This document shows, piece by piece, positions 141 to 38,415 of a stretch of DNA of 38,415 nucleotides. The DNA lies in IMG/VR virus record IMGVR_UViG_3300027888_000008, positions 1-38,415 of that record. One strand, written 5' to 3'. Under the pieces are notes generated by a model. That model worked only from the letters and a program-made list of their open reading frames with translations, had not been told where the DNA came from and did not search any database. The stretch is from a virus. Its lineage: Duplodnaviria; Caudoviricetes. The translations under genes were made by a program, and so were the position numbers. Numbering within the stretch: position 1 is the stretch's first letter; every line of letters begins with the position of its first letter.

Positions 141-617
141 ATGAAAACGTTTGAAGAGACGCAAGAAATCTTAACCAAAATATTAGGGCATGCTCCTAGG
201 ATTGTAGATGGGAAATTTGACCTACTCGGCGCAAACCTACACGGTGCAGACCTAAGCGGCGCATACCTACACGGCGCAAACCTATTCGGCGCACACCTAA
301 ACTATACAGACCTACGTGGTGCAGACCTAAGCAACGCAAGCCTAAGCCGCGCAGACCTAATCTACGCAGACCTACGCGGTGCAAACCTAATCGGCGCATA
401 CCTACACGGCGCATACCTACTCGGCGCATACCTACGCGACGCAAACCTACGTGGTGCATACCTACACGGTGCAGACCTACGCGGTGCAGACTTACGCGGT
501 GCAAACCTACGAGACGCAGACCTAAGCAACGCATACCTACGCGGAACAAAACTCGACAAAAAGCATTTTAAAGAAGCAATCGGGCTTCCAATAATCAATG
601 ACAAGGTGAAAAAATGA
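141..617 (+). CDS. Pentapeptide repeat protein, array copy 5 (21 repeats)
   Basis: MKTFEET cap, A(D/N)LxG repeats, TKLDKKHF...VKK cap; ATGA overlaps at both ends. Confidence 0.95.
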   Translation: MKTFEETQEILTKILGHAPRIVDGKFDLLGANLHGADLSGAYLHGANLFGAHLNYTDLRGADLSNASLSRADLIYADLRGANLIGAYLHGAYLLGAYLRDANLRGAYLHGADLRGADLRGANLRDADLSNAYLRGTKLDKKHFKEAIGLPIINDKVKK

Positions 618-1225
618 AAACGTTTGAAGAGACGAAAGAAATCTTAACCAAAATATTAGGGCATGAGCCAAAAATTGTAGATGGGAAATTTTACTTATGC
701 GGAGCAAACCTACGCGGTGCAGACCTACGAAGCGCAAACCTACGCGGTGCAGACATACGCGGCGCAAACCTAAGCCACGCAAACCTAAGCGGTGCAAACC
801 TAATCGGCGCAAACCTAATCGGCGCAAACCTAATCGGCGAAGACCTAAGCTACGCATACCTACGTCGCGCAGACCTATTCGGAGCAGACCTACGCGGAGC
901 AGACCTAAGCGTTGCAGACCTAAGCGAGGCATGCCTATGCGTTATAGATCTACGCGGCGCAAACCTAAGCAACGCAGACCTATTCGGTGCAGACCTAAGC
1001 GACTCAAACCTAAGCAACGCAGCCCTACGCGGTGCATCCCTAATCTACACAAACCTACGAGGCGCAGACCTACGAGGTGCATACCTAAGTGGCATAGACC
1101 TACGCCGAGCAGACCTACGCAATGCAAACCTACTCGGCGCAAACCTAAGCAGAACAAAACTCGACAAAAAACATTTTAAAGAAGCAAACGGGCTTCCAAT
1201 AATCAATGACGAGGTGAAAAAATGA
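614..1225 (+). CDS. Pentapeptide repeat protein, array copy 6 (30 repeats)
   Basis: Same caps and repeat core; ATGA coupling. Confidence 0.95.
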   Translation: MKTFEETKEILTKILGHEPKIVDGKFYLCGANLRGADLRSANLRGADIRGANLSHANLSGANLIGANLIGANLIGEDLSYAYLRRADLFGADLRGADLSVADLSEACLCVIDLRGANLSNADLFGADLSDSNLSNAALRGASLIYTNLRGADLRGAYLSGIDLRRADLRNANLLGANLSRTKLDKKHFKEANGLPIINDEVKK

Positions 1226-1893
1226 AAACGTTTGAAGAGACGAAAGAAATCTTAACCAAAATATTAGGGCATGAGCCAAAAATTGTAGATGGGAAATTTT
1301 ACCTAAGCAACGCAGACCTACGCGGTGCATCCCTAATCTACACAGACCTACGAGGCGCAGACCTACGAGACGCAGACCTAAGTAACGCAAACCTATGCGG
1401 TATATACCTAAGCCACGCAAACCTAAGCCGCGCATACCTAAGCAACGCAGACCTACGCGGTGCATGCCTAGTCGGTGCATGCATAGTCGGTGCAGACATA
1501 CGAGGCGCAAACCTAAGCGGCGCAAACATAAGCGGCGCAGACCTACGTCGCGCAGACCTATTCGGCGCAGACCTACGCGGCGCAGACCTACGCGGAGCAG
1601 ACCTACGCGTTGCAGACCTAAGCGACGCAGAACTACGCGAAGCAAACCTACGCGAAGCAGACCTAAGCGAGGCATACCTAAGTAACGCAAACCTACGCAA
1701 CGCAGACCTAATCGATGCAAATCTATGTGGCGCAAACCTAAAACACGCAAACCTAAGCGAGGCAGACCTATGCGGCGCACACCTAAGCAACGCAAACCTA
1801 AGCTACGCATACCTACGCGGAACAAAACTCGACAAAAAGCATTTTGAAGAAGCAATCGGGCTTCCAATAATCAACGACGAGGTGAAAAAATGA
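1222..1893 (+). CDS. Pentapeptide repeat protein, array copy 7 (34 repeats)
   Basis: Same caps and repeat core; ATGA coupling. Confidence 0.95.
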   Translation: MKTFEETKEILTKILGHEPKIVDGKFYLSNADLRGASLIYTDLRGADLRDADLSNANLCGIYLSHANLSRAYLSNADLRGACLVGACIVGADIRGANLSGANISGADLRRADLFGADLRGADLRGADLRVADLSDAELREANLREADLSEAYLSNANLRNADLIDANLCGANLKHANLSEADLCGAHLSNANLSYAYLRGTKLDKKHFEEAIGLPIINDEVKK

Positions 1894-2450
1894 AAACCTT
1901 TGAAGAGACGCAAGAAATCTTAACCAAAATATTAGGGCATGCTCCTAGGATTGTAGATGGGAAATTTTACCTATGCGGAGCAAACCTACGCGGTGCAGAC
2001 CTACGAAGCGCAAACCTACGCGGTGCAGACCTATACTGCGCAAACCTAAGCCACGCAAACCTACGCAACGCAGACCTACACGGTGCAGACCTAAACGGCG
2101 CAGACCTACGCAACGCAGACCTACTCGGCGCAAACCTACTCCGCGCAGACCTACGCGACGCAGACCTAAACGGCGCAAACCTAAGCAACGCAAACCTATT
2201 CGGCGCACACCTAAACTATACAGACCTACGTGGTGCAGACCTAAGCAACGCAAGCCTAAGCGGCGCAGACCTAATCTACGCAGACCTACGCGGCGCAAAC
2301 CTAAGCGGCGCATACCTAAACGGCGCATACCTACGCGGCGCATACCTACGCGGAACAAAACTCGACAAAAAGCATTTTGAAGAAGCAATCGGGCTTCCAA
2401 TTATCAACGACGAGGTGAATCATGAAACAAGCGCTGACACGCATAAATAA
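1890..2450 (+). CDS. Pentapeptide repeat protein, array copy 8 (25 repeats, divergent tail)
   Basis: Same caps up to NDEV, then a unique tail NHETSADTHK. Confidence 0.95.
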   Translation: MKTFEETQEILTKILGHAPRIVDGKFYLCGANLRGADLRSANLRGADLYCANLSHANLRNADLHGADLNGADLRNADLLGANLLRADLRDADLNGANLSNANLFGAHLNYTDLRGADLSNASLSGADLIYADLRGANLSGAYLNGAYLRGAYLRGTKLDKKHFEEAIGLPIINDEVNHETSADTHK

Positions 2451-2556
2451 AGTAGTGAATGACGGAAAAATAGTAGGTGATAAATCTAATATCTTCGGTA
2501 GAGGTATATCAATCAATGCATTAATCAAAGAGGACAAAGACAATGGACAGAACTAA
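2422..2556 (+). CDS. Small hypothetical protein (44 aa, MKQALTRINKVVNDGKIVG...)
   Basis: GAGGTG SD upstream; bridges the array and yqaJ; not in the ORF track. Confidence 0.55.
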   Translation: MKQALTRINKVVNDGKIVGDKSNIFGRGISINALIKEDKDNGQN

Positions 2557-3538
2557 ATTTCTCGAAGAACGCCGCTCGGGCATTGGCGGTTCAGATGTAG
2601 CAAGCCTTGTGGCTGCTGAATTGCCAGAACTTGAGCTTACACCATTTAAAACACCGCTTGAGGTTTATTATTCAAAGGTGCTTGAGCCAGAAGATACAGA
2701 ACCGACGATTGACCAGAGGCGTGGGATTAATGCAGAGTACTTGGTAACAGAGCTTTATTTAAGTAAAAATGCTACTAAAAATGAAACTTATTGTATTGTT
2801 GACCATTCACCGCTACTTAGAACACGTGATTTTATGCTTGCGCATCCAGATAAGATAATTGGGAGCTTTACTCCGCCATTAGAGACTTTTAATCCATTAT
2901 TAGGTTGGCATATTTTAGAATGCAAAACAGTTCATCCCTCAAAAGCCGACCGGTGGAAAACCAAAGCCCCGCTTGAATATTGGCTGCAATGCATTCACTA
3001 TGCTATTGTTTGCGATGCACCATTCGTTGACATCGCTGGCATGATAGGATTTGAGGGGCTATCGGGCGACGATGAATATTTTAAAATTTATCGGTATGAG
3101 CGCGATAAGAAACTTGAAAAAAGAATAATCGACATCGAAGAACGCTTTTGGGAAAAGCACGTACTAAAAAAGATACCACCGCCACCGATGAATAATGCTG
3201 ATTACAATTTACTGCACGTCTCGCACAACAAGAAAAAAGCAATCATCGCAACGGCAGAAATTGACGAGGCTGTAAAAAAATATAGCTTTTTAGCAGCGGC
3301 AATCGAAAAATATAAAAAAGAAAAAGACGAGCAATCGCTACTTATAAAAAATTACATGGGCGACGCATATACCTTGCAAGACAACGAAGGTCAAAAGCTA
3401 GGCGTATGCTACAATAAGAATAATCCGCCAAAGCTAGACAAAGAAAAACTAAAGACTCTAATTTCAGAAGAAGACTACAACAGTCTTTTTGCAACTCCTA
3501 CACAAATCACCATCTTTACTCCAACCAAGAGGACATAA
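2543..3538 (+). CDS. YqaJ-like viral recombinase exonuclease (lambda-exonuclease family)
   Basis: RRSGIGGSDVA, HPD, ILECKT and QCIHY motifs; directly upstream of recT. Confidence 0.9.
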   Translation: MDRTKFLEERRSGIGGSDVASLVAAELPELELTPFKTPLEVYYSKVLEPEDTEPTIDQRRGINAEYLVTELYLSKNATKNETYCIVDHSPLLRTRDFMLAHPDKIIGSFTPPLETFNPLLGWHILECKTVHPSKADRWKTKAPLEYWLQCIHYAIVCDAPFVDIAGMIGFEGLSGDDEYFKIYRYERDKKLEKRIIDIEERFWEKHVLKKIPPPPMNNADYNLLHVSHNKKKAIIATAEIDEAVKKYSFLAAAIEKYKKEKDEQSLLIKNYMGDAYTLQDNEGQKLGVCYNKNNPPKLDKEKLKTLISEEDYNSLFATPTQITIFTPTKRT

Positions 3539-3541
3539 ATC

Positions 3542-4525
3542 ATGACAAATATTACAGAAGTGACAAACACGTTAAAGGCTAACAGAAAAGCAATGATTTC
3601 GTTGCTAGAAACAGATTACGACGGGCGCAAATTATCTTTAGAAGAAAAAGAAGCACGCTGTAAGAACTTAAGCCGCGTATTAATAAATCAGCTTCAAATA
3701 AATCCAGAAGTTTTAAAAGCGTCGCCAGATTCAATTTATTTGGCTGCAATGGAAGGGGTTAGGAATAAACTAGAATTAGGGTACGATTTTCATCTTGTGG
3801 CTTACGGTAATGTGTGTAAATGTATGATGGATTATAAGGGCAAATTGACTCTTGCGAAACGTTCTAAACGCGTAACAAAAATTGATGTTCAGCTTGTTCA
3901 TGAAAACGACGAATTTTGGTTACGTTTTGGAGAAGAACCGTATCATAAAATTTCAGGAAAATCCGCTTTTAATCGAGGAGAAATAATTGGGGTGTACGCC
4001 GTCGGCAAAGAGTTAGACGCAAGAGGGATAGAGCAAGTTTATGTTGATCCGATGTCTGTAGATGAGATAAATGATATTAGAAATCGCTACTCACAACAAA
4101 AGAACGGCACAGCATGGACAAATAGTTGGGGAGAAATGGCGAAGAAAACAGTCTTGCGAAGACTAACTAAACGCCTAGATAGAAGCATCAACGATCAATT
4201 CAGACTTACATCAAATCAAGATATGTGGCACGAAGATACTACTTTTGACAATGCAGAAGTAATCGAAGGAAAAACGGTTCAAGCTCCTGCAATGATAGAA
4301 CAGCAAATAAACCCAACCGATCAGTTAAACGCGGCTTTTGACGCAAAAGAAAAAGAACCTGTTAAAGCAAAAAGCAAGAAAAAAGATGAAGTAGAAATAC
4401 CGACAACCATCAGCGAGGAAGAGCAACTTGAAAAAGAAGAAGCATCAACGATCAATTCAGACTTACATCAAATCGAGATATGCTGCAATTATGGCGAAAG
4501 CAGAAACAAACAAACTTTTACTTAA
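3542..4525 (+). CDS. recT: RecT-family single-strand annealing recombinase
   Basis: MDYKGKLTLAKRS, VHENDEF, RGEIIGVYAV and W...WGEMAKKTVLRRLTKRL motifs. Confidence 0.9.
   Translation: MTNITEVTNTLKANRKAMISLLETDYDGRKLSLEEKEARCKNLSRVLINQLQINPEVLKASPDSIYLAAMEGVRNKLELGYDFHLVAYGNVCKCMMDYKGKLTLAKRSKRVTKIDVQLVHENDEFWLRFGEEPYHKISGKSAFNRGEIIGVYAVGKELDARGIEQVYVDPMSVDEINDIRNRYSQQKNGTAWTNSWGEMAKKTVLRRLTKRLDRSINDQFRLTSNQDMWHEDTTFDNAEVIEGKTVQAPAMIEQQINPTDQLNAAFDAKEKEPVKAKSKKKDEVEIPTTISEEEQLEKEEASTINSDLHQIEICCNYGESRNKQTFT
4181..4482 (+). repeat. 45-bp direct repeat inside recT (4181-4225 and 4438-4482, 1 mismatch)
   Basis: agaagcatcaacgatcaattcagacttacatcaaatc(a/g)agatatg occurs twice. Confidence 0.9.
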
Positions 4526-4543: not shown

Positions 4544-4771
4544 ATGATTACATTTTTATATCTTTCAATCCTTTTTGGAAGCGTTTTTTTAGCGTATTGC
4601 ATAGTATTAATAACAGAATTTATAGTAAGTTTTACTAGAAAGAAAAAAATGATGAGAGATTTTGAAAAGCAATCGAATTATATAGTTTCAGATAAAAAAG
4701 CTAAAAAAATTATCAAGAAATGTCCTTCATGGAAAGAACCTAGAAATTTTACAAATATTAAGACGCTATAG
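4544..4771 (+). CDS. Small membrane protein
   Basis: N-terminal hydrophobic helix followed by a basic tail. Confidence 0.6.
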   Translation: MITFLYLSILFGSVFLAYCIVLITEFIVSFTRKKKMMRDFEKQSNYIVSDKKAKKIIKKCPSWKEPRNFTNIKTL

Positions 4772-4846
4772 TTTAATGGTAAAACATGCTAGTTTTTCCT
4801 TAAAAATTTTTCTAGCAAGATTCTGGTTCGAATCCAGCTGGCGTCA
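4762..4846 (+). tRNA. tRNA-like element with an aberrant anticodon arm (identity undeterminable)
   Basis: Acceptor GACGCTA/TGGCGTC; D-arm GTTT-AATGGTA-AAAC; T-loop GGTTCGAATCC; stem TGCTAG/CTAGCA closes a 19-nt loop. Confidence 0.7.
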
Positions 4847-4942
4847 CTAATTTAATAGAGGGCGATCTATTCCTAAAATCGTTGAGCATGAAAAAACTCC
4901 CCTCTATTGGTTTATTATAAACTATTTTCAAAAAAATACTAT

Positions 4943-5019
4943 GCCGCCGTAGCTTAAGAAAAGCGCGCGAGGATTAGCCCTTCTTGCGTGAGATTCAGGT
5001 TTAATTCCTGACGGCGGCA
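4943..5019 (+). tRNA. tRNA-like element with an extended anticodon stem (loop TTAGCCC)
   Basis: Acceptor GCCGCCG/CGGCGGC; D-arm GCTT/AAGC; T-arm TCAGG-TTTAATT-CCTGA; 8-bp anticodon stem including G-U pairs. Confidence 0.65.
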
Positions 5020-5154
5020 CTTAAATTTTTTTGAAAAAACTTGGTTTATGTACAAAATAGATACAATTTAGGTCTAGTTATACCAATTTAAAAGCAGAGA
5101 AAGAGTTGATTGACGAGCTTAGGGAAATGTTATTTATATGTGTTTGTGAAAAAA

Positions 5155-5285: not shown

Positions 5286-6113
5286 ATGGAGCAAGCTAGT
5301 TACAATTATGGCAATAGGTGTGGGCATGTGCCAAACAGCCCGCGACTATACGTAAGGCCAGCATTTAAAAAGAAAACATACGATATTTTAACGGACGCGC
5401 AAAAAAATCTAGCAGAATATTATTCAGACCCAAAAAACTGGCTAAAAAACATCGAGGAAAGCCGTTTTGATGTTGATAAGGGTCATAGCATGGGTCAACA
5501 AAGAACGGAGTCGAGAGAGGCTGTGGCTGCCGTTACGGGCGTGATTTTAGACCACTTAGACCTCGATACCATGAACATCGTTCGATATAAACAAGGAACA
5601 CCAAAAAATATGTCAATTTACGACATTGCCGAAAAAGCTGGAATTAATTACGATAGATGTTGGCGTGCGCTAATGGTGCTTCAAAATGCGTCTTATGTAA
5701 CTAGTAAACAAGCACAAATTAAGGAAATCGCGCTGAAGCGAGTTAGCCTTACATTATTACATCATTTAGGAATATCTGCTCTGCGTGTACATCTATGCAG
5801 AGGAAAGAAGCATAAATCACTAGAAATGAAACGCGGCGAAACAGCCATCCAAAATAATCCACAGTTAAAAAAAGCCATGAAAAGTCTTAAAGAAGCTCTT
5901 TGTAAACCAATAAAAACACTTGAGCAAAAAGAGGAAGCAGAAAAAGAAAAACAACGTAAATATTTTTGCAAGTGCAGCAGAGAACTTTTCTTGAACCTAG
6001 AACCACAAATTAAGGCTGGAAAAATGTCGATTGGTGATATCAATAGAATATTGTATGAACGCGGCATTTACCATCCCGACCTACCAAAAGAAAAAGTCTT
6101 TGGAAAGACGTGA
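5286..6113 (+). CDS. Plasmid-type replication initiator (IncFII RepA-like, HTH)
   Basis: SREAVAAV...DHLD, SIYDIAEKAGI, RCWRALMVLQNASYVT and LLHHLGIS parallel recalled IncFII RepA motifs; DnaA boxes lie downstream. Confidence 0.65.
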   Translation: MEQASYNYGNRCGHVPNSPRLYVRPAFKKKTYDILTDAQKNLAEYYSDPKNWLKNIEESRFDVDKGHSMGQQRTESREAVAAVTGVILDHLDLDTMNIVRYKQGTPKNMSIYDIAEKAGINYDRCWRALMVLQNASYVTSKQAQIKEIALKRVSLTLLHHLGISALRVHLCRGKKHKSLEMKRGETAIQNNPQLKKAMKSLKEALCKPIKTLEQKEEAEKEKQRKYFCKCSRELFLNLEPQIKAGKMSIGDINRILYERGIYHPDLPKEKVFGKT

Positions 6114-6236
6114 AAACAAGAAAATATAGAAATCCTAGAACAATCCTGCCTAAAAATACCCGCTGAACAAATTTTGTGCACAAAAAATGAAAGTCCGCCT
6201 GTATTGCGACCCACAGCAAGTCAATTTTTCTTAGCC

Positions 6237-6257
6237 TGTGGATAACTCTGTGGATAA
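6237..6257 (-). promoter_or_regulatory. Two consensus DnaA boxes; putative origin
   Basis: TGTGGATAA at 6237-6245 and 6249-6257 (TTATCCACA on the minus strand). Confidence 0.8.
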
Positions 6258-6581
6258 CTTTCAAAAAATAGACAAAAATAGGCCTGCATTCAAAAATAAG
6301 TGCGAATAGGAAATCAAATAAGTAGGGAGCAGCCCCTCTCTATTAATACTCTAATGTATTTTTTTGCTTTTATTTTTTAAAGAGGGTGGCGCGGTGGGAA
6401 TAGTGCATAAATTTTGCATATTTGAGGAAATAATGAGCGTTCCGCTAAGCTTTAGAAATGACTTGAATTTATAGAAATGTAATGGGAGTCGTGCAAACGT
6501 CGCTGTTGTAAACATCACAATAATTACAAATGCTTGATAAAATGGATGTTTAATCGTTGCTTAAAATCTTGAGCATATTTG

Positions 6582-8059: not shown

Positions 8060-8211
8060 TGTTCACCTCTTTCGATTTTGTATGTTTCATTTTCTTTTTC
8101 CTCATAAAATTTGTTCATTTCTATATATGCTTTTTGTCCTTCTTCGCAGCCCGCTTCATAGCCCGCTTCCCACGCAGTTTGCTGGGCTTCTATTTCTTTT
8201 GTGTTACTCAT
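8056..8211 (-). CDS. Small hypothetical protein (51 aa, MSNTKEIEAQQTAWEAGYEAG...)
   Basis: GAGGTG SD; ATGA overlap with the next gene; not in the ORF track. Confidence 0.65.
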   Translation of the reverse strand: MSNTKEIEAQQTAWEAGYEAGCEEGQKAYIEMNKFYEEKENETYKIERGEQ

Positions 8212-8374
8212 CTTTCACCTCGCTATATTTAAAATTTGCGTCAATTATTTCCCACGAGTGACCAATAAACTTTGCATCGTGCAGGTCTGCTGTATATAAG
8301 TGCGCGTCGTGTAGTTCAATTTTTCCGAAAATTCTTTCGTGGTTCTCTTTTGTCTCTTCAAATGTTTTTTTCAT
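8204..8374 (-). CDS. Divergent short paralogue of the pentapeptide array (56 aa)
   Basis: MKKTFEETKE...ELHDAHLYTADLHDAKFIG...SEVKDE; GAGGTG SD; not in the ORF track. Confidence 0.75.
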   Translation of the reverse strand: MKKTFEETKENHERIFGKIELHDAHLYTADLHDAKFIGHSWEIIDANFKYSEVKDE

Positions 8375-9100: not shown

Positions 9101-9331
9101 TTATAGCGGTTTTCGAGATTTTATTTTTTCAACGATTCCGAAAAGCATCTCTGCAATTTTTAAGCGATTTTCCGGTCGTGTAAGATCAAGACCATCTAAG
9201 TTTGTAGTGCTTAAATCCGCTGTCTGTAAGTTTGCAGTGCTTAAATCCGCTGTCTGTAAGTTTGCGTTGCGTTCCTCAAAATCTATTCTTTCAACTGTAA
9301 AGTTTTCGCTGTTTTTCATAATGCACCTCAA
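9101..9331 (-). CDS. Small protein with a short pentapeptide-like tract
   Basis: ANLQT ADLST ANLQT ADLST TNLDG; perfect 30-bp tandem duplication at 9206-9265. Confidence 0.65.
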   Translation of the reverse strand: MRCIMKNSENFTVERIDFEERNANLQTADLSTANLQTADLSTTNLDGLDLTRPENRLKIAEMLFGIVEKIKSRKPL

Positions 9332-9810
9332 TAGTTAAAGATTTGGCAGTGTGCCTCGTCGGTTTTTGTGTAGTCATTGTGTTGTCCCCCATAGTATGTG
9401 TTTCTTTTTATTGTTGATTTTATGTACATAAGTTCTTTTTGTGCTTTTCTCGATTTTCTTTTTTCGAATATTTTTGCTATTGTTTGCTTTTCTAAAAGCA
9501 TTTTTGTATTGCGGTACGCTTTAAAAATCGTGAAAAACATCAAGTATCTTTCTGTGCTCGTTAATTTTTTTAACGCGCTTATTTCTTTGTCATCGTGTAA
9601 AAAATCCAAACAGATACTTTCTTCTCCGCCGCCATGTTTTACTAGCAAAAACATACAACCAAAGCGTTTTTCAACTAGTCTAAAGTAAAAAGCCCTGTAG
9701 CAGACGTTCCCTATCACGCGGCCCGGTTCTTCAAAAATTATGGTGTCGTTGAAGCGCACCGTCGGGAATTTCCAATTATCTGTAGTTTCGTTACATTTTA
9801 AATTTTCCAT
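9328..9810 (-). CDS. Hypothetical protein
   Basis: Starts MEN after the repeated leader with a GAGGG SD. Confidence 0.75.
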   Translation of the reverse strand: MENLKCNETTDNWKFPTVRFNDTIIFEEPGRVIGNVCYRAFYFRLVEKRFGCMFLLVKHGGGEESICLDFLHDDKEISALKKLTSTERYLMFFTIFKAYRNTKMLLEKQTIAKIFEKRKSRKAQKELMYIKSTIKRNTYYGGQHNDYTKTDEAHCQIFNY

Positions 9811-9886
9811 GATGTTGTCCCTCTTAATAAAAAATAAAATACACCCCCACGAGTGTGGGGAAAGATTTATCTTTTGGGTTAAAGTT

Positions 9887-10126: not shown

Positions 10127-10233
10127 AAGTCAGTCCCTCTAAAAATTAATTAATAAAAAAGTAAAAAAAGCCTCTCTTGTTTTATCGCTGCATTTCCCAC
10201 AAGCACCCCCACGAGTGTGGGGAAAGATGATGT

Positions 10234-10479
10234 TTACTCACTAGATGTCCACTCGCCGTAAAAACCAAAGTCGGCGTAGTCTGCTATCACTACGTCGTCA
10301 TCACCAGCGCGCACACCGTACCACGGCAGCGTAGCGACTACCTCGTCGTCGTGCTCGATGTGTATGCTAGTCTGTGTATATGCTAGATGTGCCTCCGCAT
10401 ATGCTTTTGCTTGCTCGAGTGTGTCGCGCCACTCATTGCCAGCGCCTGTGCCAAAATTTACAAAATATGAATTTTCCAT
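10234..10479 (-). CDS. Small acidic hypothetical protein (81 aa)
   Basis: Start moved to MENSYF, which has the same leader as the gene at 9810. Confidence 0.75.
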   Translation of the reverse strand: MENSYFVNFGTGAGNEWRDTLEQAKAYAEAHLAYTQTSIHIEHDDEVVATLPWYGVRAGDDDVVIADYADFGFYGEWTSSE

Positions 10480-10542
10480 GATGTTGTCCCTCTTAATAAA
10501 AAATAAAATACACCCCCACACGAGTGTGGGGAAAGATGATGT

Positions 10543-10947
10543 TTACTTACTAGATGACTTTTGCATGCGGTCATAGTCTTGCGAGCCGACTATAAATGCA
10601 GTTTTGACGCACCAAGGGCTCTCCTTTTTTTCGATTTCTCGTAGTATCCCGTATTGATCACTATAGTCGCTGTCAGGCATAAGCTCATCGTCTAGCTCAG
10701 CTTTGCTGGTGCATATCTTATCGCTGATGTAGATGGGCTTTGCTGTACTATCTATCTCATCGTCGTCTTGATACTCTGCTGCGTAGTCTAAGTGCTGCTG
10801 CTCATAATAGTCGCCGTCAAGCTGCACCAGCTCTTTTCTTAGGTCTGCGAGCATCTGGCGTGCGTCGGCTTCTGTGTCCGCTGTCTGTAGCTTCTGCGAG
10901 CCGTTGACGATATCATAGCAATATAAAGTATAAGTATAAGTGATCAT
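10543..10947 (-). CDS. Acidic hypothetical protein
   Basis: GAGG SD; D/E/Y-rich; first gene of the leftward operon. Confidence 0.75.
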   Translation of the reverse strand: MITYTYTLYCYDIVNGSQKLQTADTEADARQMLADLRKELVQLDGDYYEQQHLDYAAEYQDDDEIDSTAKPIYISDKICTSKAELDDELMPDSDYSDQYGILREIEKKESPWCVKTAFIVGSQDYDRMQKSSSK

Positions 10948-17965: not shown

Positions 17966-18042
17966 TGTCATTGAACGACGTTCAATGACAAATGACACCT
18001 CTGAGGTGACAAAATGACACCTCTGAGGTGACAAAATGACAC
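17966..18042. repeat. 12-bp inverted repeat plus 22-bp tandem repeat x2.4 (iteron- or operator-like)
   Basis: TGTCATTGAACG-a-CGTTCAATGACA; AAATGACACCTCTGAGGTGACA at 17990 and 18012, partial copy at 18034. Confidence 0.85.
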
Positions 18043-18228
18043 GAAATTTACAGTACTCATCAGAGCAAGCGCGTGAGCTCATCTTTGACTGCTTCAAGAA
18101 TGAAAAAACATAAAAAAATTTTCCTGATTGTTTCCCGTTTTCCCGACGGGAAAACGCGGGAAAAATTTCAATCTATATAGCTCTCGAATCAATATATATG
18201 CTGGAGTTAGATCGTGTGCGTAAAAATC

Positions 18229-18248
18229 TGTGGATAACCTGTGGATAA
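18229..18248 (-). promoter_or_regulatory. Two consensus DnaA boxes
   Basis: TGTGGATAA at 18229-18237 and 18240-18248. Confidence 0.8.
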
Positions 18249-18251
18249 CTC

Positions 18252-31994: not shown

Positions 31995-33689
31995 ATGGGA
32001 TTTATTAGACACAAGCAAACATTTAATCTTGCAAAATCTTATGATGCGGTTCAGACATATTTCCTTGCAAAATATGGTTCAGACAGCAATAGCGGATTAT
32101 CAGAACACAAACCGTTTGTAACAGCAGCTAAAGCTTTAGATGTTGCCAATGCAGCAGCAAGCGTAAGCACTCCTGTTACTATTTTATGTTTAGACAATGG
32201 AACATACAGCATCCAGTCAAAATCAATAAACGATTATGTTGTTTTTTATGCGCCAAATGCAAAATTAATCGGCAATTTTATTGATATCGAAGGAAAATCA
32301 AAAATAATATGCGCTGAACAAGGAGAAGGATTTTTTGACTTTGTTGGGGCAACAGCTTCAGATATTGCATACTATACTGCAAGATATGTAAATGGCAAAT
32401 TTTCACCAATAAATACTCTGCGTATTCTTAGTGCCGCATCGGCTAATATTTCAATCGGAACACTAGAAATGGAAGTCGCCACAGGGACACCATATGGCGT
32501 GCTCGTTGATAATGCAAGCTCAATTAAAAATATAATTAAGATTGATACTTTATTGCTTGGAGCTAACAATGTAGGCGGAATAAATGTTGATCAAGGACAC
32601 GCAACCATTATCGTCGGACAAACTTTAAAAACTGGCTCATTTACTGGGACAACAGGAATAAAAGTTGCAGCAGGCGCGACGGCAGACATAATCATTCATG
32701 GTAAAAACGAGGCAGATACACCAATTAATGTAAACGATCATAATCACAATATTATTTCCACAGAACATGGAATTTTAATTCGCGGCAAAAGACCTCTTAT
32801 TAGCGCAAAAGGCTACGCCAGCACGCAAGCAGCGCGTATTGAAACTTCGTTTGCCGAAGGAAGTCCATCATCGCCAACAACAATTTTGCCGACCGCTGAT
32901 TTAGGTGCTCATATCGCTTATGGTGAAAGGCAAGACGGTTCGCTTTCAGGACAATACCCATACGTAGAACTATTACCTACTACACAAGCAGGTGATATTG
33001 AAGACGGGAAATATGTAATTACCGTAAATGATGTTCAGTCCGGCGGCTCAGTGATCAACCATACTGCTTTCAGTTATGCCGCAAAAACAGGCGGCGGAAC
33101 TGGAGAATACGGAGTTCCATTTGCTGTTGCAGGATTTTCATTACCGACGGCAGACGGCGTACTTGGCCAGCTATTACAAACTAACGGGAGCAAAGTATTA
33201 GGATTTGTTCCAAAACCAGTTTCTATACAATTCGGAATAGAAAATTTAATATCGTCCGCTCCAGTAATTCCACGCGATAATACTCCGCCTCTTATTTCAG
33301 AAGGAACGTTGATTAGTGACGGCGCTCCAACTCCTGTTACTTTTACAATCCCATTTACACTAAGCAGTTTGTCTAAAATGCTAAAAATTAGTTTATCTGT
33401 CGTTGTATGGGTAGATGCCGACGTGGCTGTAACTGTCGCTGTTTTTGAAAGCTTTGGCTCAAGCTGTATCGGCAAACGGTCGAAAAAAATTAAAGGCACT
33501 GATTCTACTAATAATTTAAAGTCGATTGAGTGGACTTTTTTCTATCAACCACCAACGACGCCATCAAGAACTTATACAGCCCGCATAGGCCCGGATGCAA
33601 CATGCAATCTAAGATTAAATGGCGATGGAAGCGATACGAGCTTATTTATTAATTATTCAAGTTTTACTATAGAAGAAGTCCCTGCTTAA
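31995..33689 (+). CDS. Tailspike/receptor-binding protein (beta-helix-like N-terminal half)
   Basis: YGSDSNSGLSEHKPFVTAAKAL...GTY motif; LPTADG..GQLLQTNGS..L.F fibre motif. Confidence 0.7.
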   Translation: MGFIRHKQTFNLAKSYDAVQTYFLAKYGSDSNSGLSEHKPFVTAAKALDVANAAASVSTPVTILCLDNGTYSIQSKSINDYVVFYAPNAKLIGNFIDIEGKSKIICAEQGEGFFDFVGATASDIAYYTARYVNGKFSPINTLRILSAASANISIGTLEMEVATGTPYGVLVDNASSIKNIIKIDTLLLGANNVGGINVDQGHATIIVGQTLKTGSFTGTTGIKVAAGATADIIIHGKNEADTPINVNDHNHNIISTEHGILIRGKRPLISAKGYASTQAARIETSFAEGSPSSPTTILPTADLGAHIAYGERQDGSLSGQYPYVELLPTTQAGDIEDGKYVITVNDVQSGGSVINHTAFSYAAKTGGGTGEYGVPFAVAGFSLPTADGVLGQLLQTNGSKVLGFVPKPVSIQFGIENLISSAPVIPRDNTPPLISEGTLISDGAPTPVTFTIPFTLSSLSKMLKISLSVVVWVDADVAVTVAVFESFGSSCIGKRSKKIKGTDSTNNLKSIEWTFFYQPPTTPSRTYTARIGPDATCNLRLNGDGSDTSLFINYSSFTIEEVPA

Positions 33690-34369
33690 AGCACAAGACA
33701 CATAGATGAACTTACAGTTCTGTTTTCCTGCTTTGAATCTTTGAAAAATGTTGCAGCAACTTTGCAATTAGATGGATTTTTGTCAATGCACCTAAAACAT
33801 TCATCTTGATCATCAGAATCTTTAATAAAAGTTTTTCCATAATTTGATGTAATTTTTTTATATAATCCTTTCCCTTTTGCAGCAAGTTGAAAACGCAAAA
33901 TTCCATATTTATTTCTTTGTGTTGGAGCAGTTTCATATCCACATATAACAGAAGATTCTTCTTTTGCAGGAGTGATTATTTCTTCATCAAGCCCATTTAA
34001 TATTTTCATTCGCGGTAGATAAAAACTGCAAATTTTCATATTAGTTGGGCAGCATTTAGTGGATGGTTCAAATTTGTAAAAAGAATTATGCGCAAGATAA
34101 TAATCAATTTCATTTGATATAATAGGCGCGCTATTTGCAAAAACATCCTGCATTTTCCAAGTAACGCCCTCTATAACGGCAGAATTATTTTCTCGTAATA
34201 ATCCTTTCTCTGTAAAATAAAAACCCGATATTGACTTAGTGCAATCATATTCATTTGGTGTTGGGCAAATAAATTCCTTAGTATATTCATCATTAGCATA
34301 AACGGATTTTATTGATAGAATGGCAATTGCTGCTTTTACAATTGTCTTAAGAATTTGCTTAATATTCAT
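33686..34369 (-). CDS. Moron-like secreted Cys-rich protein ending in CaaX (CLVL)
   Basis: Signal-peptide-like N-terminus; multiple Cys; opposite strand to its neighbours. Confidence 0.75.
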   Translation of the reverse strand: MNIKQILKTIVKAAIAILSIKSVYANDEYTKEFICPTPNEYDCTKSISGFYFTEKGLLRENNSAVIEGVTWKMQDVFANSAPIISNEIDYYLAHNSFYKFEPSTKCCPTNMKICSFYLPRMKILNGLDEEIITPAKEESSVICGYETAPTQRNKYGILRFQLAAKGKGLYKKITSNYGKTFIKDSDDQDECFRCIDKNPSNCKVAATFFKDSKQENRTVSSSMCLVL

Positions 34370-35894: not shown

Positions 35895-35922
35895 TTGACA
35901 AAATAAAATCCGATATTATAAT
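35895..35922 (+). promoter_or_regulatory. Consensus sigma70 promoter for the rusA-array-recET operon
   Basis: TTGACA-16 bp-TATAAT. Confidence 0.8.
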
Positions 35923-35952
35923 GCCATTATATTCATAAGAAGGGCAAATGAC

Positions 35953-36504
35953 ATGAAGTCAAGAATTGAATTTTTATTATATACATATAATAAACCTACC
36001 TTTCCAGTTTCTGAAGGTTGGAAACTAAAATACTATTTTTCGCTTCCCTTTCCGCCTACCACAGGAAACAATCAATATTATACCAATCTTCGTCTAAATA
36101 ATTTTAATGGTTCAAATTTCGCATACAAAAATAAGTCTGTTGCTATTGGTTACAAAAACTGCCCTAATTATTCAAGGAAAAAACAAAAACCATACAAAGC
36201 AATTCATGTATTGAAAGACTGCATAAGAGATTATCGTCAATATGCAAAATATTATTTGGCGAATCTTGTCAGTAAACGCGGAACGATAAGCAAAACCGCT
36301 GGCGCATGCATTCTTATTGTCATGCCAGATAGGCGAAGGCGTGACATGGAAAATTTGTTAAAAGTCGTAAACGATGCGCTTCAGTACGCCAAAATAGTTG
36401 AAGATGATAAGTTATTTAGACGATCGAAAATAATCATAGCAGACGAACCCGATAAAATTGACCCAAACATTTCGTTTTTAATCTTTGAAAGAGTTGAACG
36501 ATGA
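35953..36504 (+). CDS. rusA: RusA-family Holliday junction resolvase
   Basis: LPFPPT.GN and PDRRRRDMENLLKVVNDALQ....EDD motifs. Confidence 0.9.
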   Translation: MKSRIEFLLYTYNKPTFPVSEGWKLKYYFSLPFPPTTGNNQYYTNLRLNNFNGSNFAYKNKSVAIGYKNCPNYSRKKQKPYKAIHVLKDCIRDYRQYAKYYLANLVSKRGTISKTAGACILIVMPDRRRRDMENLLKVVNDALQYAKIVEDDKLFRRSKIIIADEPDKIDPNISFLIFERVER

Positions 36505-36722
36505 AAACATTTGAAGAAACAGAGGAAATCCTAACTAAGATTCTTGGGTATGAGCCAAAAATTGTTGGTAAAAGATTTGAATTATTCGGCGCAAACCTAC
36601 GCGGCGCAAACCTACGCAACGCAAACCTACGCGGCGCAAACATAAGCGGAACAAAACTCGACAAAAAACATTTTAAAGAAGCAATCGGACTCCCAATTAT
36701 CAATGACGAGGTGAAAAAATGA
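36501..36722 (+). CDS. Pentapeptide repeat protein, array copy 1 (4 repeats)
   Basis: Both caps present with a minimal core; ATGA overlap with rusA. Confidence 0.9.
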   Translation: MKTFEETEEILTKILGYEPKIVGKRFELFGANLRGANLRNANLRGANISGTKLDKKHFKEAIGLPIINDEVKK

Positions 36723-37420
36723 AAACGTTTGAAGAGACGCAAGAAATCTTAACCAAAATATTAGGGCATGAGCCTAGGATTGTAGATGGAGAGTTTTGCC
36801 TAAGCGAGTCAGACCTACGCGGTGCAAACCTAAGCGGCGCAAACCTAAGCTACGCAGACCTACGTGGTGCATACCTACGCGGTGCAGACATACGAGGCGC
36901 AGACTTACGCGGTGCAAACCTAAGCGGCGCAAACCTAAGCGGCGCAAACCTACACGGCGCAGACCTAAGCTACACAGGCCTACGCGGTGCATGCCTAGTC
37001 GGTGCAGACCTACGAGGCGCAGACCTAAGCTACGCAGGCCTACGAAGCGCAGACCTACGCGACGCAAACCTACGCGGAGCAAACCTACGCGGTGCAGACC
37101 TACTCGGCGCAAACCTAAGCCACGCAAACCTACGCAACGCAGACCTACGCGGTGCAGAACTACGCGAAGCAGACCTAAGCAACGCAGACCTACGCGGTGC
37201 AAACCTAAGCGACGCAGACCTAACCTACGCAGACCTACGAAGCGCAGACCTACGCGACGCAAACCTAGGCGGCGCATACCTAAGCGGCATAGACCTAAGC
37301 CGAGCAGACCTACGCAATGCAAACCTAAGAGGCGCAGACCTAAGCAGAACAAAACTCGACAAAAAGCATTTTGAAGAAGCAAACGGGCTTCCAATAATCA
37401 ATGACAAGGTGAAAAAATGA
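36719..37420 (+). CDS. Pentapeptide repeat protein, array copy 2 (36 repeats)
   Basis: Caps plus repeat core; ATGA coupling. Confidence 0.95.
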   Translation: MKTFEETQEILTKILGHEPRIVDGEFCLSESDLRGANLSGANLSYADLRGAYLRGADIRGADLRGANLSGANLSGANLHGADLSYTGLRGACLVGADLRGADLSYAGLRSADLRDANLRGANLRGADLLGANLSHANLRNADLRGAELREADLSNADLRGANLSDADLTYADLRSADLRDANLGGAYLSGIDLSRADLRNANLRGADLSRTKLDKKHFEEANGLPIINDKVKK

Positions 37421-37953
37421 AAACGTTTGAAGAGACGAAAGAAATCTTAACCAAAATATTAGGGCATGCTCCTATGATTGTAGATGGGAAATTTTACCTA
37501 AGCTACGCAGACCTACGCGGTGCATCCCTAATCTACACAAACCTACACGGCGCAAACCTAAGCCGCGCAAACCTAATCGGCGCAAACCTATTCGGCGCAC
37601 ACCTAAACTATACAGACATACGTGGTGCAGACCTAAGCAACGCAAGCCTAAGCGGCGCAGACCTAATCTACGCAGACTTACGCGGTGCAAACCTAATCGG
37701 CGCATACCTACACGGCGCAGACCTATGCGGAGCATACCTACGCGACGCAAACCTACGTGGTGCATACCTACACGGTGCAGACCTACGCGGTGCAGACTTA
37801 CGCGGTGCAAACCTACGCAACGCAGACCTATTCGGCGCAAAAATAAGCGTAACAAAACTCGACAAAAAGCATTTTAAAGAAGCAATCGGGCTTCCAATAA
37901 TCAATGACAAGGTGAAAAAATGGAAACGTTTGAAGAGACGCAAGAAATCTTAA
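37417..37953 (+). CDS. Pentapeptide repeat protein, array copy 3 (23 repeats; 10-aa read-through tail)
   Basis: The usual TGA is TGG at 37921-37923. Confidence 0.9.
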   Translation: MKTFEETKEILTKILGHAPMIVDGKFYLSYADLRGASLIYTNLHGANLSRANLIGANLFGAHLNYTDIRGADLSNASLSGADLIYADLRGANLIGAYLHGADLCGAYLRDANLRGAYLHGADLRGADLRGANLRNADLFGAKISVTKLDKKHFKEAIGLPIINDKVKKWKRLKRRKKS

Positions 37954-38415
37954 CCAAAATACTAGGACATGAGCCTAGGATTGTAGATTGGAAATTTTAC
38001 CTACGCGGAGCAAACCTACGCGGAGCAAACCTACGCGGAGCAAACCTATGCGGTGCAGACCTACTCGGCGCAAACCTAAGCCACGCAAACCTACGCAACG
38101 CAGACCTAGGCGGTGCAGAACTACGCGAAGCAGACCTAAGCCACGCAAACCTAAGCGGTGCAAACCTAATCTACGCAAACCTAAGAGGCGCAGACCTACG
38201 CGGTGCATCCCTAATCTACACAAACCTACGAGCCGCAGACCTACGTGGTGCATACCTAATCTACACAAACCTACAAGGCGCAGACCTACGCGGCGCATAC
38301 CTAAGCGGCATAGACCTAAGCCGAGCAGACCTACGCAATGCAAACCTAAGAGGCGCAGACCTAAGCAGAACAAAACTCGACAAAAAGCATTTTGAAGAAG
38401 CAAACGGGCTTCCAA
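37920..38415 (+). CDS. Pentapeptide repeat protein, array copy 4 (runs off the end; joins 119-144 if circular, 173 aa, 24 repeats)
   Basis: METFEETQEILTKILGHEPRIVDWKFYLRGANL...; in frame through the terminal overlap; missing from the ORF track. Confidence 0.9.
   Translation, partial: METFEETQEILTKILGHEPRIVDWKFYLRGANLRGANLRGANLCGADLLGANLSHANLRNADLGGAELREADLSHANLSGANLIYANLRGADLRGASLIYTNLRAADLRGAYLIYTNLQGADLRGAYLSGIDLSRADLRNANLRGADLSRTKLDKKHFEEANGLP

What the first reader, a model, noticed from the sequence alone, without database searches (positions are those of the whole stretch)
35895..38415. The variable array sits inside the recombination operon: promoter-rusA-[8 paralogues]-yqaJ-recT
Seen: a perfect TTGACA/TATAAT promoter, rusA ATGA-coupled to copy 1, and gap-free coupling through the array and a 44-aa ORF into yqaJ and recT. 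Known: YqaJ/RecT-type systems recombine short, imperfect homologies and RusA resolves junctions. Inference: an RT-free diversity-generating system in which the co-expressed recombination machinery shuffles the adjacent 15-bp-register repeats. Alternatively, the repeat proteins protect recombination or replication intermediates from host enzymes.
Basis: partly seen in the sequence, partly recalled or inferred. Interest (0 to 1): 0.8.

Follow-up and report, generated by a model that had tools for sequence, protein, structure and literature searches.

The report
Eight-copy phage pentapeptide-repeat gene accordion
An uncultured phage carries eight head-to-tail, patchwork copies of a gene for a predicted rod-shaped repeat protein between its recombination genes; they are likely a variable set of counter-defence proteins, likely reshuffled by ordinary recombination rather than by a dedicated diversity-generating machine.

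Summary
The layout is real. Promoter, rusA, eight pentapeptide-repeat (PRP) paralogues, a 44-aa ORF, yqaJ and recT follow one another across the contig join. Another assembly holds the array internally and is identical over 4,239 nt. The copies are mosaics of each other, with frozen silent sites and variable outward residues.

A dedicated, linkage-dependent diversifier is not supported:
- The same repeat signature occurs in 23 of 73 control viral PRP genes.
- Recombination genes flank multi-copy PRP loci (2 of 15) no more often than single ones (8 of 58).
- 0 of 93 distant recT loci carry a PRP.
- No array variants were seen in one run (weak test).

The closest cultured DNA match is Vibrio phage 24 gene 24_60. 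It uses the same 15-nt unit, varies in length, has no RecT/YqaJ in its genome, and is a postulated anti-defence protein. Its published escape mutations fall on outward repeat positions.

Best reading: an amplified counter-defence gene battery sharing a strong early promoter; RecT likely acts on it in trans. This scan noted similar PRP arrays on other DNA. Close relatives could not be fetched.

The parts
35895..35922 (+). sigma-70 consensus promoter (TTGACA-16-TATAAT)
   Evidence: function untested
35953..36504 (+). RusA-like Holliday junction resolvase; residues matching E. coli D70, K76, D91 kept, D72 is Glu; last codons resemble the ribosome-binding stretch in front of the left-arm paralogue
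36501..36722 (+). PRP copy 1 (73 aa, 5 repeats), ATGA-coupled to rusA
36719..37420 (+). PRP copy 2 (233 aa, 37 repeats)
37417..37953 (+). PRP copy 3 (178 aa, 24 repeats; stop lost, runs 11 codons into copy 4)
37920..38415 (+). PRP copy 4, 5' part (173 aa in all, 25 repeats; continues over the join to position 144)
   Evidence: intact in L009 and L012
1..144 (+). PRP copy 4, 3' part; 1-118 repeats 38298-38415 and 37277-37394
141..617 (+). PRP copy 5 (158 aa, 22 repeats); predicted beta-helix with N-terminal helix cap
614..1225 (+). PRP copy 6 (203 aa, 31 repeats)
1222..1893 (+). PRP copy 7 (223 aa, 35 repeats)
1890..2450 (+). PRP copy 8 (186 aa, 26 repeats); its C-cap carries the ribosome-binding site of the next ORF
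2422..2556 (+). 44-aa ORF, no family match
2543..3538 (+). YqaJ/RecE-like exonuclease
3542..4525 (+). RecT-family single-strand annealing protein
8204..8374 (-). diverged ninth paralogue (56 aa; same N-cap start, about three repeats) in the leftward early arm, not next to recombination genes
   Evidence: (I10, I25)
9101..9319 (-). further small pentapeptide-like ORF in the leftward arm
   Evidence: (PF00805 E 1e-3, just under cut-off)

Best explanation
The phage carries eight tandem, mosaic pentapeptide-repeat genes between rusA and yqaJ-recT, which likely form an amplified battery of counter-defence proteins that is likely reshuffled by ordinary recombination rather than by a dedicated machine. 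Shown: the layout, the mosaic exchange between copies, conserved caps around variable repeats, and the same 15-nt unit as in Vibrio phage 24 gene 24_60. Inferred step 1: one founder gene entered the operon with its own ribosome-binding site and was duplicated start codon to start codon, which explains the coupling. Inferred step 2: unequal crossover and conversion between caps and 15-nt units change copy number, rod length and outward residues; the phage's RecT/YqaJ likely does much of this, as it would anywhere in the genome, alongside slippage and host recombination. Inferred step 3: host defence proteins select for variant surfaces, and the position is kept because it gives strong early expression.
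For: Mosaics: identical runs of 3 or more units between copies, 6 observed against 0.01 (maximum 1) in 1,000 shuffles; 39 of 66 informative cap SNP pairs fail the four-gamete test. Selection pattern: over 197 units (109 distinct DNA, 81 distinct peptide units), silent positions 3 and 9 are A in 197 of 197, although CTA is only 29 of 376 Leu codons in eight other genes; amino-acid-changing outward positions 4, 10, 11, 13 and 14 have heterozygosity 0.42-0.63; caps have pN/pS about 0.2. Generic to the family: 23 of 73 control PRP genes have both sites frozen, with 11 different codon pairs; 66 of 73 have outward diversity above silent diversity. Functional analogue: best cultured DNA matches include phage 24 and CP-T1 (81-83%), with the same unit and 8 versus 13 repeats. 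Deleting 24_60 raised Sucellos resistance, and escapers carried Y112R and N110N/N115D (bioRxiv 2024.07.02.601686, passages); these residues fall at outward positions i+1 and i-1. Anti-defence gene amplification is described in T4 and T6 (PMC9391042 and PMC13096335, abstracts). Founder: 13 of 14 bases upstream of and including the start codon match between copy 1 and the left-arm paralogue.
Against: No function was tested and the host is unknown. The window's proteins lack the roughly 75-aa C-terminal domain of 24_60, and the two proteins align only over repeats, so the analogy rests on the repeat rod alone. Pooled over outward codons pN/pS is 0.99, because the silent site at position 15 is itself variable; the excess (2.1, bootstrap 1.8-2.5) appears only against all silent sites, and units are not independent. 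G/C-to-A/T mutation bias could contribute to frozen A sites. Some PRP genes do abut recombinase genes (L016, L074, L196, L212), so a weak preference is not excluded. The three close relatives (RecT 64-82% identical) could not be read.
Confidence: 0.6

Rival explanations
1. Dedicated RT-free diversity generator: the recombination genes are kept next to, and co-expressed with, the array in order to shuffle it at a high rate.
For: Layout confirmed; mosaics real; RecT-type enzymes recombine 78%-identical DNA far better than RecA (PMC3945230, passages); an unrelated phage has two tandem PRP genes directly before a Sak4-type gene, with yqaJ two genes on (L212).
Against: 0 of 93 recT loci carry a PRP (29 have 3 kb or more upstream). 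2 of 15 multi-copy versus 8 of 58 single-copy PRP loci have a recombination gene within 2.5 kb. Five cultured PRP phages, including phage 24, have no RecT, ERF, Rad52, Sak4 or YqaJ match over cut-off. No silent donor cassettes: all eight copies are open and carry a ribosome-binding site. Three other assemblies match the array apart from one likely scaffold gap, and one run shows no variant letters or joints; this is a weak test. Recombinases act in trans (established knowledge, recalled).
Confidence: 0.12
2. The rods are DNA mimics that shield recombination or replication intermediates from host nucleases or modulate gyrase, like MfpA or Qnr.
For: Same fold as MfpA and Qnr; same operon as yqaJ-recT; phage ST104 has a PRP in the arm that also holds ral, erf and abc; phage gyrase inhibitors exist (PMC10886550, passages).
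Against: Helix faces are near neutral (net -3 to +2 per face; -0.20 to +0.40 per repeat), whereas mimics are described as typically negative (PMC10886550 section 4.3). Scores are far below the Qnr (33.9 of 240) and MfpA (49.6 of 360) cut-offs. One conserved target would not explain eight lengths and variable surfaces.
Confidence: 0.13
3. Near-neutral runaway amplification: an unstable repeat gene expanded without adaptive value for the variants and is tolerated as filler for capsid length.
For: Pooled outward pN/pS is about 1; one junction has lost its stop without being purged; repeats are intrinsically unstable.
Against: All eight frames stay open, all internal length differences are multiples of 15 nt, caps are under purifying selection, and 4.2 kb (11% of the genome) sits upstream of yqaJ-recT behind a consensus promoter.
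Confidence: 0.12
4. Assembly artefact: copy number or order is produced by the assembler.
For: Assemblies break at the 133-nt repeat shared by copies 2 and 4; L013 has an 83-nt deletion in copy 4; the assemblies may share reads.
Against: L009 spans the array identically; the six unique array contigs listed have depth 17-30 against 26-27 in the flanks; 67 of 109 units are private to one copy; the L013 deletion ends exactly where that contig's own first 104 nt begin, as a scaffold join would.
Confidence: 0.03

Closest known systems
Vibrio phage 24 gene 24_60 (SBVc24_0060, KJ572844.2) and its CP-T1 equivalent; postulated anti-Sucellos protein (bioRxiv 10.1101/2024.07.02.601686)
   Same: Same 15-nt repeat unit and codon choice, frozen silent sites, variable repeat number (8 versus 13) and variable outward residues.
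   Different: Single copy, between methylases and primase, no RecT or YqaJ in the genome; has a C-terminal domain that the window's proteins lack; caps unrelated.
Phage early-region PRP genes (PF00805, PHROG 7713), e.g. Salmonella phage ST104 orf19, Caulobacter phage RW gp016, Listeria phage GP51
   Same: Fold, early-region position, homogenised repeats with variable surface codons; 355-494 of 50,697 cultured phage records match.
   Different: Usually one copy (58 of 73 loci); here eight translationally coupled copies with caps found in no other phage.
Anti-defence gene accordions of T4 (tifA) and T6 (SegB-driven amplification)
   Same: Tandem amplification of accessory genes by recombination (abstracts only).
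   Different: The abstracts describe segmental amplification under selection; here the copies are diverged, chimeric and internally repetitive, and no target is known.
RecE/RecT- and YqaJ/YqaK-type recombination modules with a Holliday junction resolvase
   Same: yqaJ directly before recT; yqaJ present in 43 of 93 recT loci; an Hjc-like gene follows recT in the nearest fetched relative, L098.
   Different: 4.2 kb of PRP genes lie between rusA and yqaJ.
MfpA and Qnr topoisomerase-protecting pentapeptide proteins
   Same: Right-handed beta-helix fold.
   Different: Far below family cut-offs and near-neutral faces.
Diversity-generating retroelements
   Same: Variable surface codons in a constant scaffold.
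   Different: No reverse transcriptase; adenines are the least variable bases; variation moves in blocks.

Membership tests
Pentapeptide repeat proteins (PF00805) | Tandem A-[D/N]-L-x-x repeats above the Pfam cut-off | tested here: met
   Copy 1: 37.3 bits, copy 2: 262 bits, cut-off 20.2; 180 of 197 units start with Ala, 189 have Leu
Pentapeptide repeat proteins (PF00805) | Beta-helix fold | tested here: met
   AlphaFold2 model of copy 5, pLDDT 92.5; Foldseek best hits are pentapeptide solenoids; prediction only
24_60-type phage PRP | Same homogenised 15-nt unit, variable in number | tested here: met
24_60-type phage PRP | C-terminal domain behind the repeats | tested here: not met
   Only a cap of about 21 aa; alignment limited to the repeats
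24_60-type phage PRP | Counters a host defence system | not testable with these tools
   Needs infection assays
Qnr/MfpA DNA mimics | Family model score above cut-off | tested here: not met
   33.9 of 240 (Qnr), 49.6 of 360 (MfpA)
Qnr/MfpA DNA mimics | Negatively charged outward surface | tested here: not met
   Net charge per face -3 to +2; only copy 7 is clearly acidic (-7); counted from sequence, no electrostatic map
Diversity-generating retroelement | Reverse transcriptase gene | tested here: not met
   PF00078: 0 of 1 genome, controls ring
Diversity-generating retroelement | Adenine-specific variation | tested here: not met
   A at positions 3 and 9 invariant in 197 of 197 units
Cassette-conversion antigenic variation (silent donors, one expression site; features recalled) | Promoterless partial donor cassettes | tested here: not met
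   All eight copies are full ORFs with a ribosome-binding site
Dedicated recombinase-linked diversifier | Conserved linkage of array and recombinase | tested here: inconclusive
   Absent at distance (0 of 93 recT loci; 2 of 15 versus 8 of 58 PRP loci); close relatives could not be read
Dedicated recombinase-linked diversifier | Standing variation in the population | tested here: inconclusive
   None listed among 78 and 88 laid contigs of one run; contigs drop rare variants, and crossovers inside long shared tracts leave no new short words
YqaJ-RecT recombination pair | PF09588 gene next to PF03837 gene | tested here: met
   45.8 and 105.3 bits, cut-offs 22 and 24
RusA resolvase | PF05866 above cut-off | tested here: met
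   26.2 bits, cut-off 22.8
RusA resolvase | Catalytic aspartates D70, D72, D91 (roles recalled) | tested here: inconclusive
   D70 and D91 kept, D72 is Glu; activity unknown

The most novel reading that the evidence does not exclude
The operon is a self-diversifying library of counter-defence proteins: expression of RecT/YqaJ with the array during each infection recombines eight beta-helix genes into new chimeric surfaces fast enough to track host defence systems, an antibody-like repertoire without reverse transcriptase.
Probability: 0.15. Interest if true: 0.8.

Novelty: new variant of a known kind. Interest (0 to 1): 0.45.

Why it matters
Pentapeptide-repeat genes match about 1% of cultured phage records. 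In my searches I found one functional lead for them, the postulated anti-defence gene 24_60. This phage spends 11% of its genome on eight variants that lack that gene's C-terminal domain. They form a natural panel for asking whether the repeat rod alone counters defences and which surface residues set specificity. My register check suggests the published escape mutations are swaps between repeat types, so repeat conversion may be a general, fast route to tune phage counter-defence. A dedicated recombinase-driven repertoire would be a new kind of system, but present evidence does not require one.

Tried and rejected
- Close relatives: scans of viral contigs with copy 1, the N-cap alignment, YqaJ, RecT, terminase and coat found the caps and these genes only in three other assemblies of the same phage. 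Metagenome and genome scans with RecT gave one closer relative (L098, 56%, a 1-kb contig with no upstream DNA) and distant ones. Three closer RecT proteins (64-82%) lie on Logan contigs whose DNA was not obtainable.
- Cap search among proteins: no other protein with these caps. This is weak, because five of the window's own six tested copies are missing from that collection.
- Expression: no RNA holder listed.
- Read laying: one bin of the array had no cover; 43-46 contigs fit two places, so this says nothing.
- Homodimer prediction of copy 5: no answer.
- A second protein in a shifted or antisense frame as the cause of frozen silent sites: considered and set aside. Those frames close at the caps, and other phages freeze different codons.
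- Whole-coil (60-nt) duplication bias: not seen; only a slight dip at lag 3.
- L013 deletion as a real allele: rejected as a likely scaffold join.
- YqaJ against solved structures: no useful match.
- Strain differences in the two-PRP phage: L226 had 3 of 3 differences in a PRP gene, but L227 (2) and L220 (23) had theirs elsewhere, so no conclusion.
- Rows dropped before counts: 8 of 81 control rows removed as antisense, non-D/N or duplicate rows; 100 PRP loci reduced to 98 with a detected ORF and to 73 after removing duplicates.
Full report
Setting. The window is a complete 38,297-bp circular virus record with direct terminal repeats. It encodes a terminase, a P22-type portal and coat, ejection and tail proteins, and an endolysin. 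The one sequencing run that holds it is labelled marine sediment and may be its source. The host is unknown; the putative Rep protein resembles Legionella and Pseudomonas plasmid proteins at about 30%.

Observation. The order promoter (35895-35922), rusA, eight PF00805 paralogues, 44-aa ORF, yqaJ, recT is confirmed. The promoter is 12 of 12 with a 16-nt spacer; 10 of 100 shuffles give such a match somewhere, so its position 30 nt before rusA is the better argument. The 118-nt terminal overlap is part of a 133-nt repeat shared by copies 2 and 4, so the join needed outside support. L009 holds the array internally and is identical over 4,239 nt, and L012 bridges copy 4 to copy 5. L013 has an 83-nt deletion that ends where its own contig start begins (104 nt identical), likely a scaffold join. 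These assemblies may share reads and are not independent biological replicates. Coupling is ATGA at seven of the eight copy starts; at copy 3/4 the stop is lost, and yqaJ and recT are 3 nt apart.

Anatomy. Each unit is an N-cap of about 25 aa, 5 to 37 pentapeptides and a cap of about 21 aa whose end carries the next ribosome-binding site. The array is 4,218 nt, 11% of the genome. The model of copy 5 is a confident beta-helix with an N-terminal helix (pLDDT 92.5; fold matches). A diverged ninth paralogue lies at 8204-8374 (-), away from the recombination genes; 13 of 14 bases up to and including its start codon match those of copy 1, which are also the last codons of rusA. I infer that a founder gene entered with its own ribosome-binding site, so the rusA coupling need not be functional.

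Evolution of the array. The copies are mosaics. There are 6 identical runs of three or more units between copies, against 0.01 in 1,000 shuffles; 42 of 109 distinct units occur in more than one copy; and 39 of 66 informative cap SNP pairs show all four gametes. All shared exact tracts of 35 nt or more lie in 15-nt register. Silent positions 3 and 9 are A in 197 of 197 units, amino-acid-changing outward positions have heterozygosity 0.42-0.63, and caps have pN/pS about 0.2. Against over-reading: pooled outward pN/pS is 0.99, because silent position 15 also varies, and units are not independent.

Is the linkage special? The evidence says not detectably.
(a) The signature is generic: 23 of 73 control PRP genes have both silent sites frozen, using 11 different codon pairs, and 66 of 73 have outward diversity above silent diversity. 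Of the 17 such loci whose neighbours were scanned, 3 have a recombination gene within 2.5 kb.
(b) Of 73 de-duplicated PRP loci (67 with scannable neighbours; same-strand ORFs of 130-420 aa only, so short resolvases are missed), 10 have RecT, Rad52, ERF, AAA_24, YqaJ, DUF3799 or NinG within 2.5 kb, and 16 on a loose count. The split is 2 of 15 multi-copy and 8 of 58 single-copy loci. With 191 of 465 phages encoding a recombinase (PMC3945230, passages), my rough estimate for any early gene is about one in five.
(c) 0 of 93 distant recT loci carry a PRP, 43 have yqaJ and 7 a RusA-like gene; at a base rate near 1% this shows only that linkage is not obligatory.
(d) Five cultured PRP phages have no RecT, ERF, Rad52, Sak4 or YqaJ match over cut-off (other recombinase families not searched).
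(e) One run shows no variant letters or joints among 78 and 88 laid contigs, a weak test.
In favour of linkage, PRP genes abut Sak4-type genes in L212, L196 and L074 and lie near recT-yqaJ in L016. The decisive comparison, three relatives with RecT 64-82% identical, could not be made.

Function. The best cultured DNA matches to copy 2 include Vibrio phages CP-T1 and 24 (81-83%). Their single gene uses the same 15-nt unit, with 13 and 8 repeats in the GenBank records, and lies between methylases and primase. A preprint reports that deleting 24_60 strongly increased resistance by the RexAB-like Sucellos system, and that six escapers carried Y112R and N110N/N115D; the authors postulate an anti-defence role (10.1101/2024.07.02.601686, passages). 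I could not see figure S7 or the corrected, apparently longer sequence. In the repeat register these residues fall at outward positions i+1 and i-1, and both changes match differences between unit types present in the gene. I infer replacement of one unit type by another. The caveat is that 24_60 has a C-terminal domain that the window's proteins lack. The DNA-mimic reading is weaker: faces are near neutral and Qnr/MfpA cut-offs are far off (PMC10886550 passages and section 4.3). It is not a DGR: no reverse transcriptase, and adenines are the stable bases. RusA keeps the residues matching D70, K76 and D91 but has Glu at D72 (catalytic roles recalled), so its activity is open.

Mechanism. Most likely (0.6): an amplified, chimeric battery of counter-defence rods expressed early from a strong promoter, diversified by unequal crossover, conversion and slippage. 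The phage's RecT/YqaJ likely contributes as it would genome-wide. Layout, mosaicism and repeat homology are shown; founder insertion, RecT involvement, selection by host defences and function are inferred. Rivals: dedicated generator 0.12, DNA mimic 0.13, near-neutral expansion 0.12, artefact 0.03.

Novelty. Phage PRP genes are common and gene accordions are described (PMC9391042 and PMC13096335, abstracts only). My nine searches (listings, with six papers opened as stated, the sixth being one passage of 10.64898/2026.05.02.722434) showed no paper on tandem phage PRP arrays; subscription journals are largely outside that library. This scan's own unchecked notes report a four-copy array and a roughly 15-copy family on other DNA, and two notes pointed to 24_60, which I then checked. 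The eight-copy, domain-less, translationally coupled form inside a recombination operon is a new variant of a known kind. Interest 0.45; the bold reading (probability 0.15) would deserve 0.8.

Noticed in passing
window 5286-6113 (+), 6236-6259: Replication-initiator-like gene resembling Legionella and Pseudomonas plasmid proteins (about 30%, one annotated RepA), followed by a doublet that looks like DnaA boxes (motif recalled). No integrase was seen among the 50 ORFs scanned, so this may be a phage-plasmid of a gammaproteobacterium.
   Followed up: partly
window 17986-18042 and 18228-18249: 22-nt iteron-like repeat (2.6 copies) and a second DnaA-box-like doublet between portal and scaffold-position genes, next to a 153-aa minus-strand ORF of no family; possibly a second origin.
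   Followed up: no
window 9801-9885, 10206-10247, 10470-10556: Repeated 23-60 nt intergenic cassettes in the leftward early arm (D16 and D18); they look like reusable regulatory cassettes that could shuffle early genes.
   Followed up: no
window 4181-4230 and 4438-4487: 50-nt internal duplication in recT (94%); the RecT tail differs from its three relatives and appears to derive from this out-of-frame copy.
   Followed up: partly
window 4762-4847 and 4943-5020: Two tRNA-like genes called by ARAGORN (Lys-TTT, Ala-AGC) just after the operon; the Ala-AGC anticodon is unusual for bacteria (recalled).
   Followed up: no
window 8204-8374 and 9101-9319 (-): Two more small pentapeptide genes in the opposite early arm; the first shares the N-cap start and upstream ribosome-binding stretch with copy 1.
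   Followed up: partly
L212:4912-8492 (-) and L196:2520-5941 (-): Unrelated phages with one or two PRP genes directly before a Sak4-type (AAA_24) gene, with yqaJ further on.
   Followed up: partly
L060:5490-15572: Seven tandem PRP genes in a GVMAG-labelled (giant-virus) contig, with Leu codons frozen in all seven.
   Followed up: no
L229:2932-3429: The CP-T1 equivalent of 24_60 is intact (165 aa) but not annotated in NC_019457.1. Five of six window copies tested are missing from the protein collection, so such genes are likely under-called.
   Followed up: partly
window 33686-34369 (-): 227-aa lone minus-strand gene between tail and lysis genes with its own consensus promoter (11 of 12); moron-like, no family match.
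   Followed up: no
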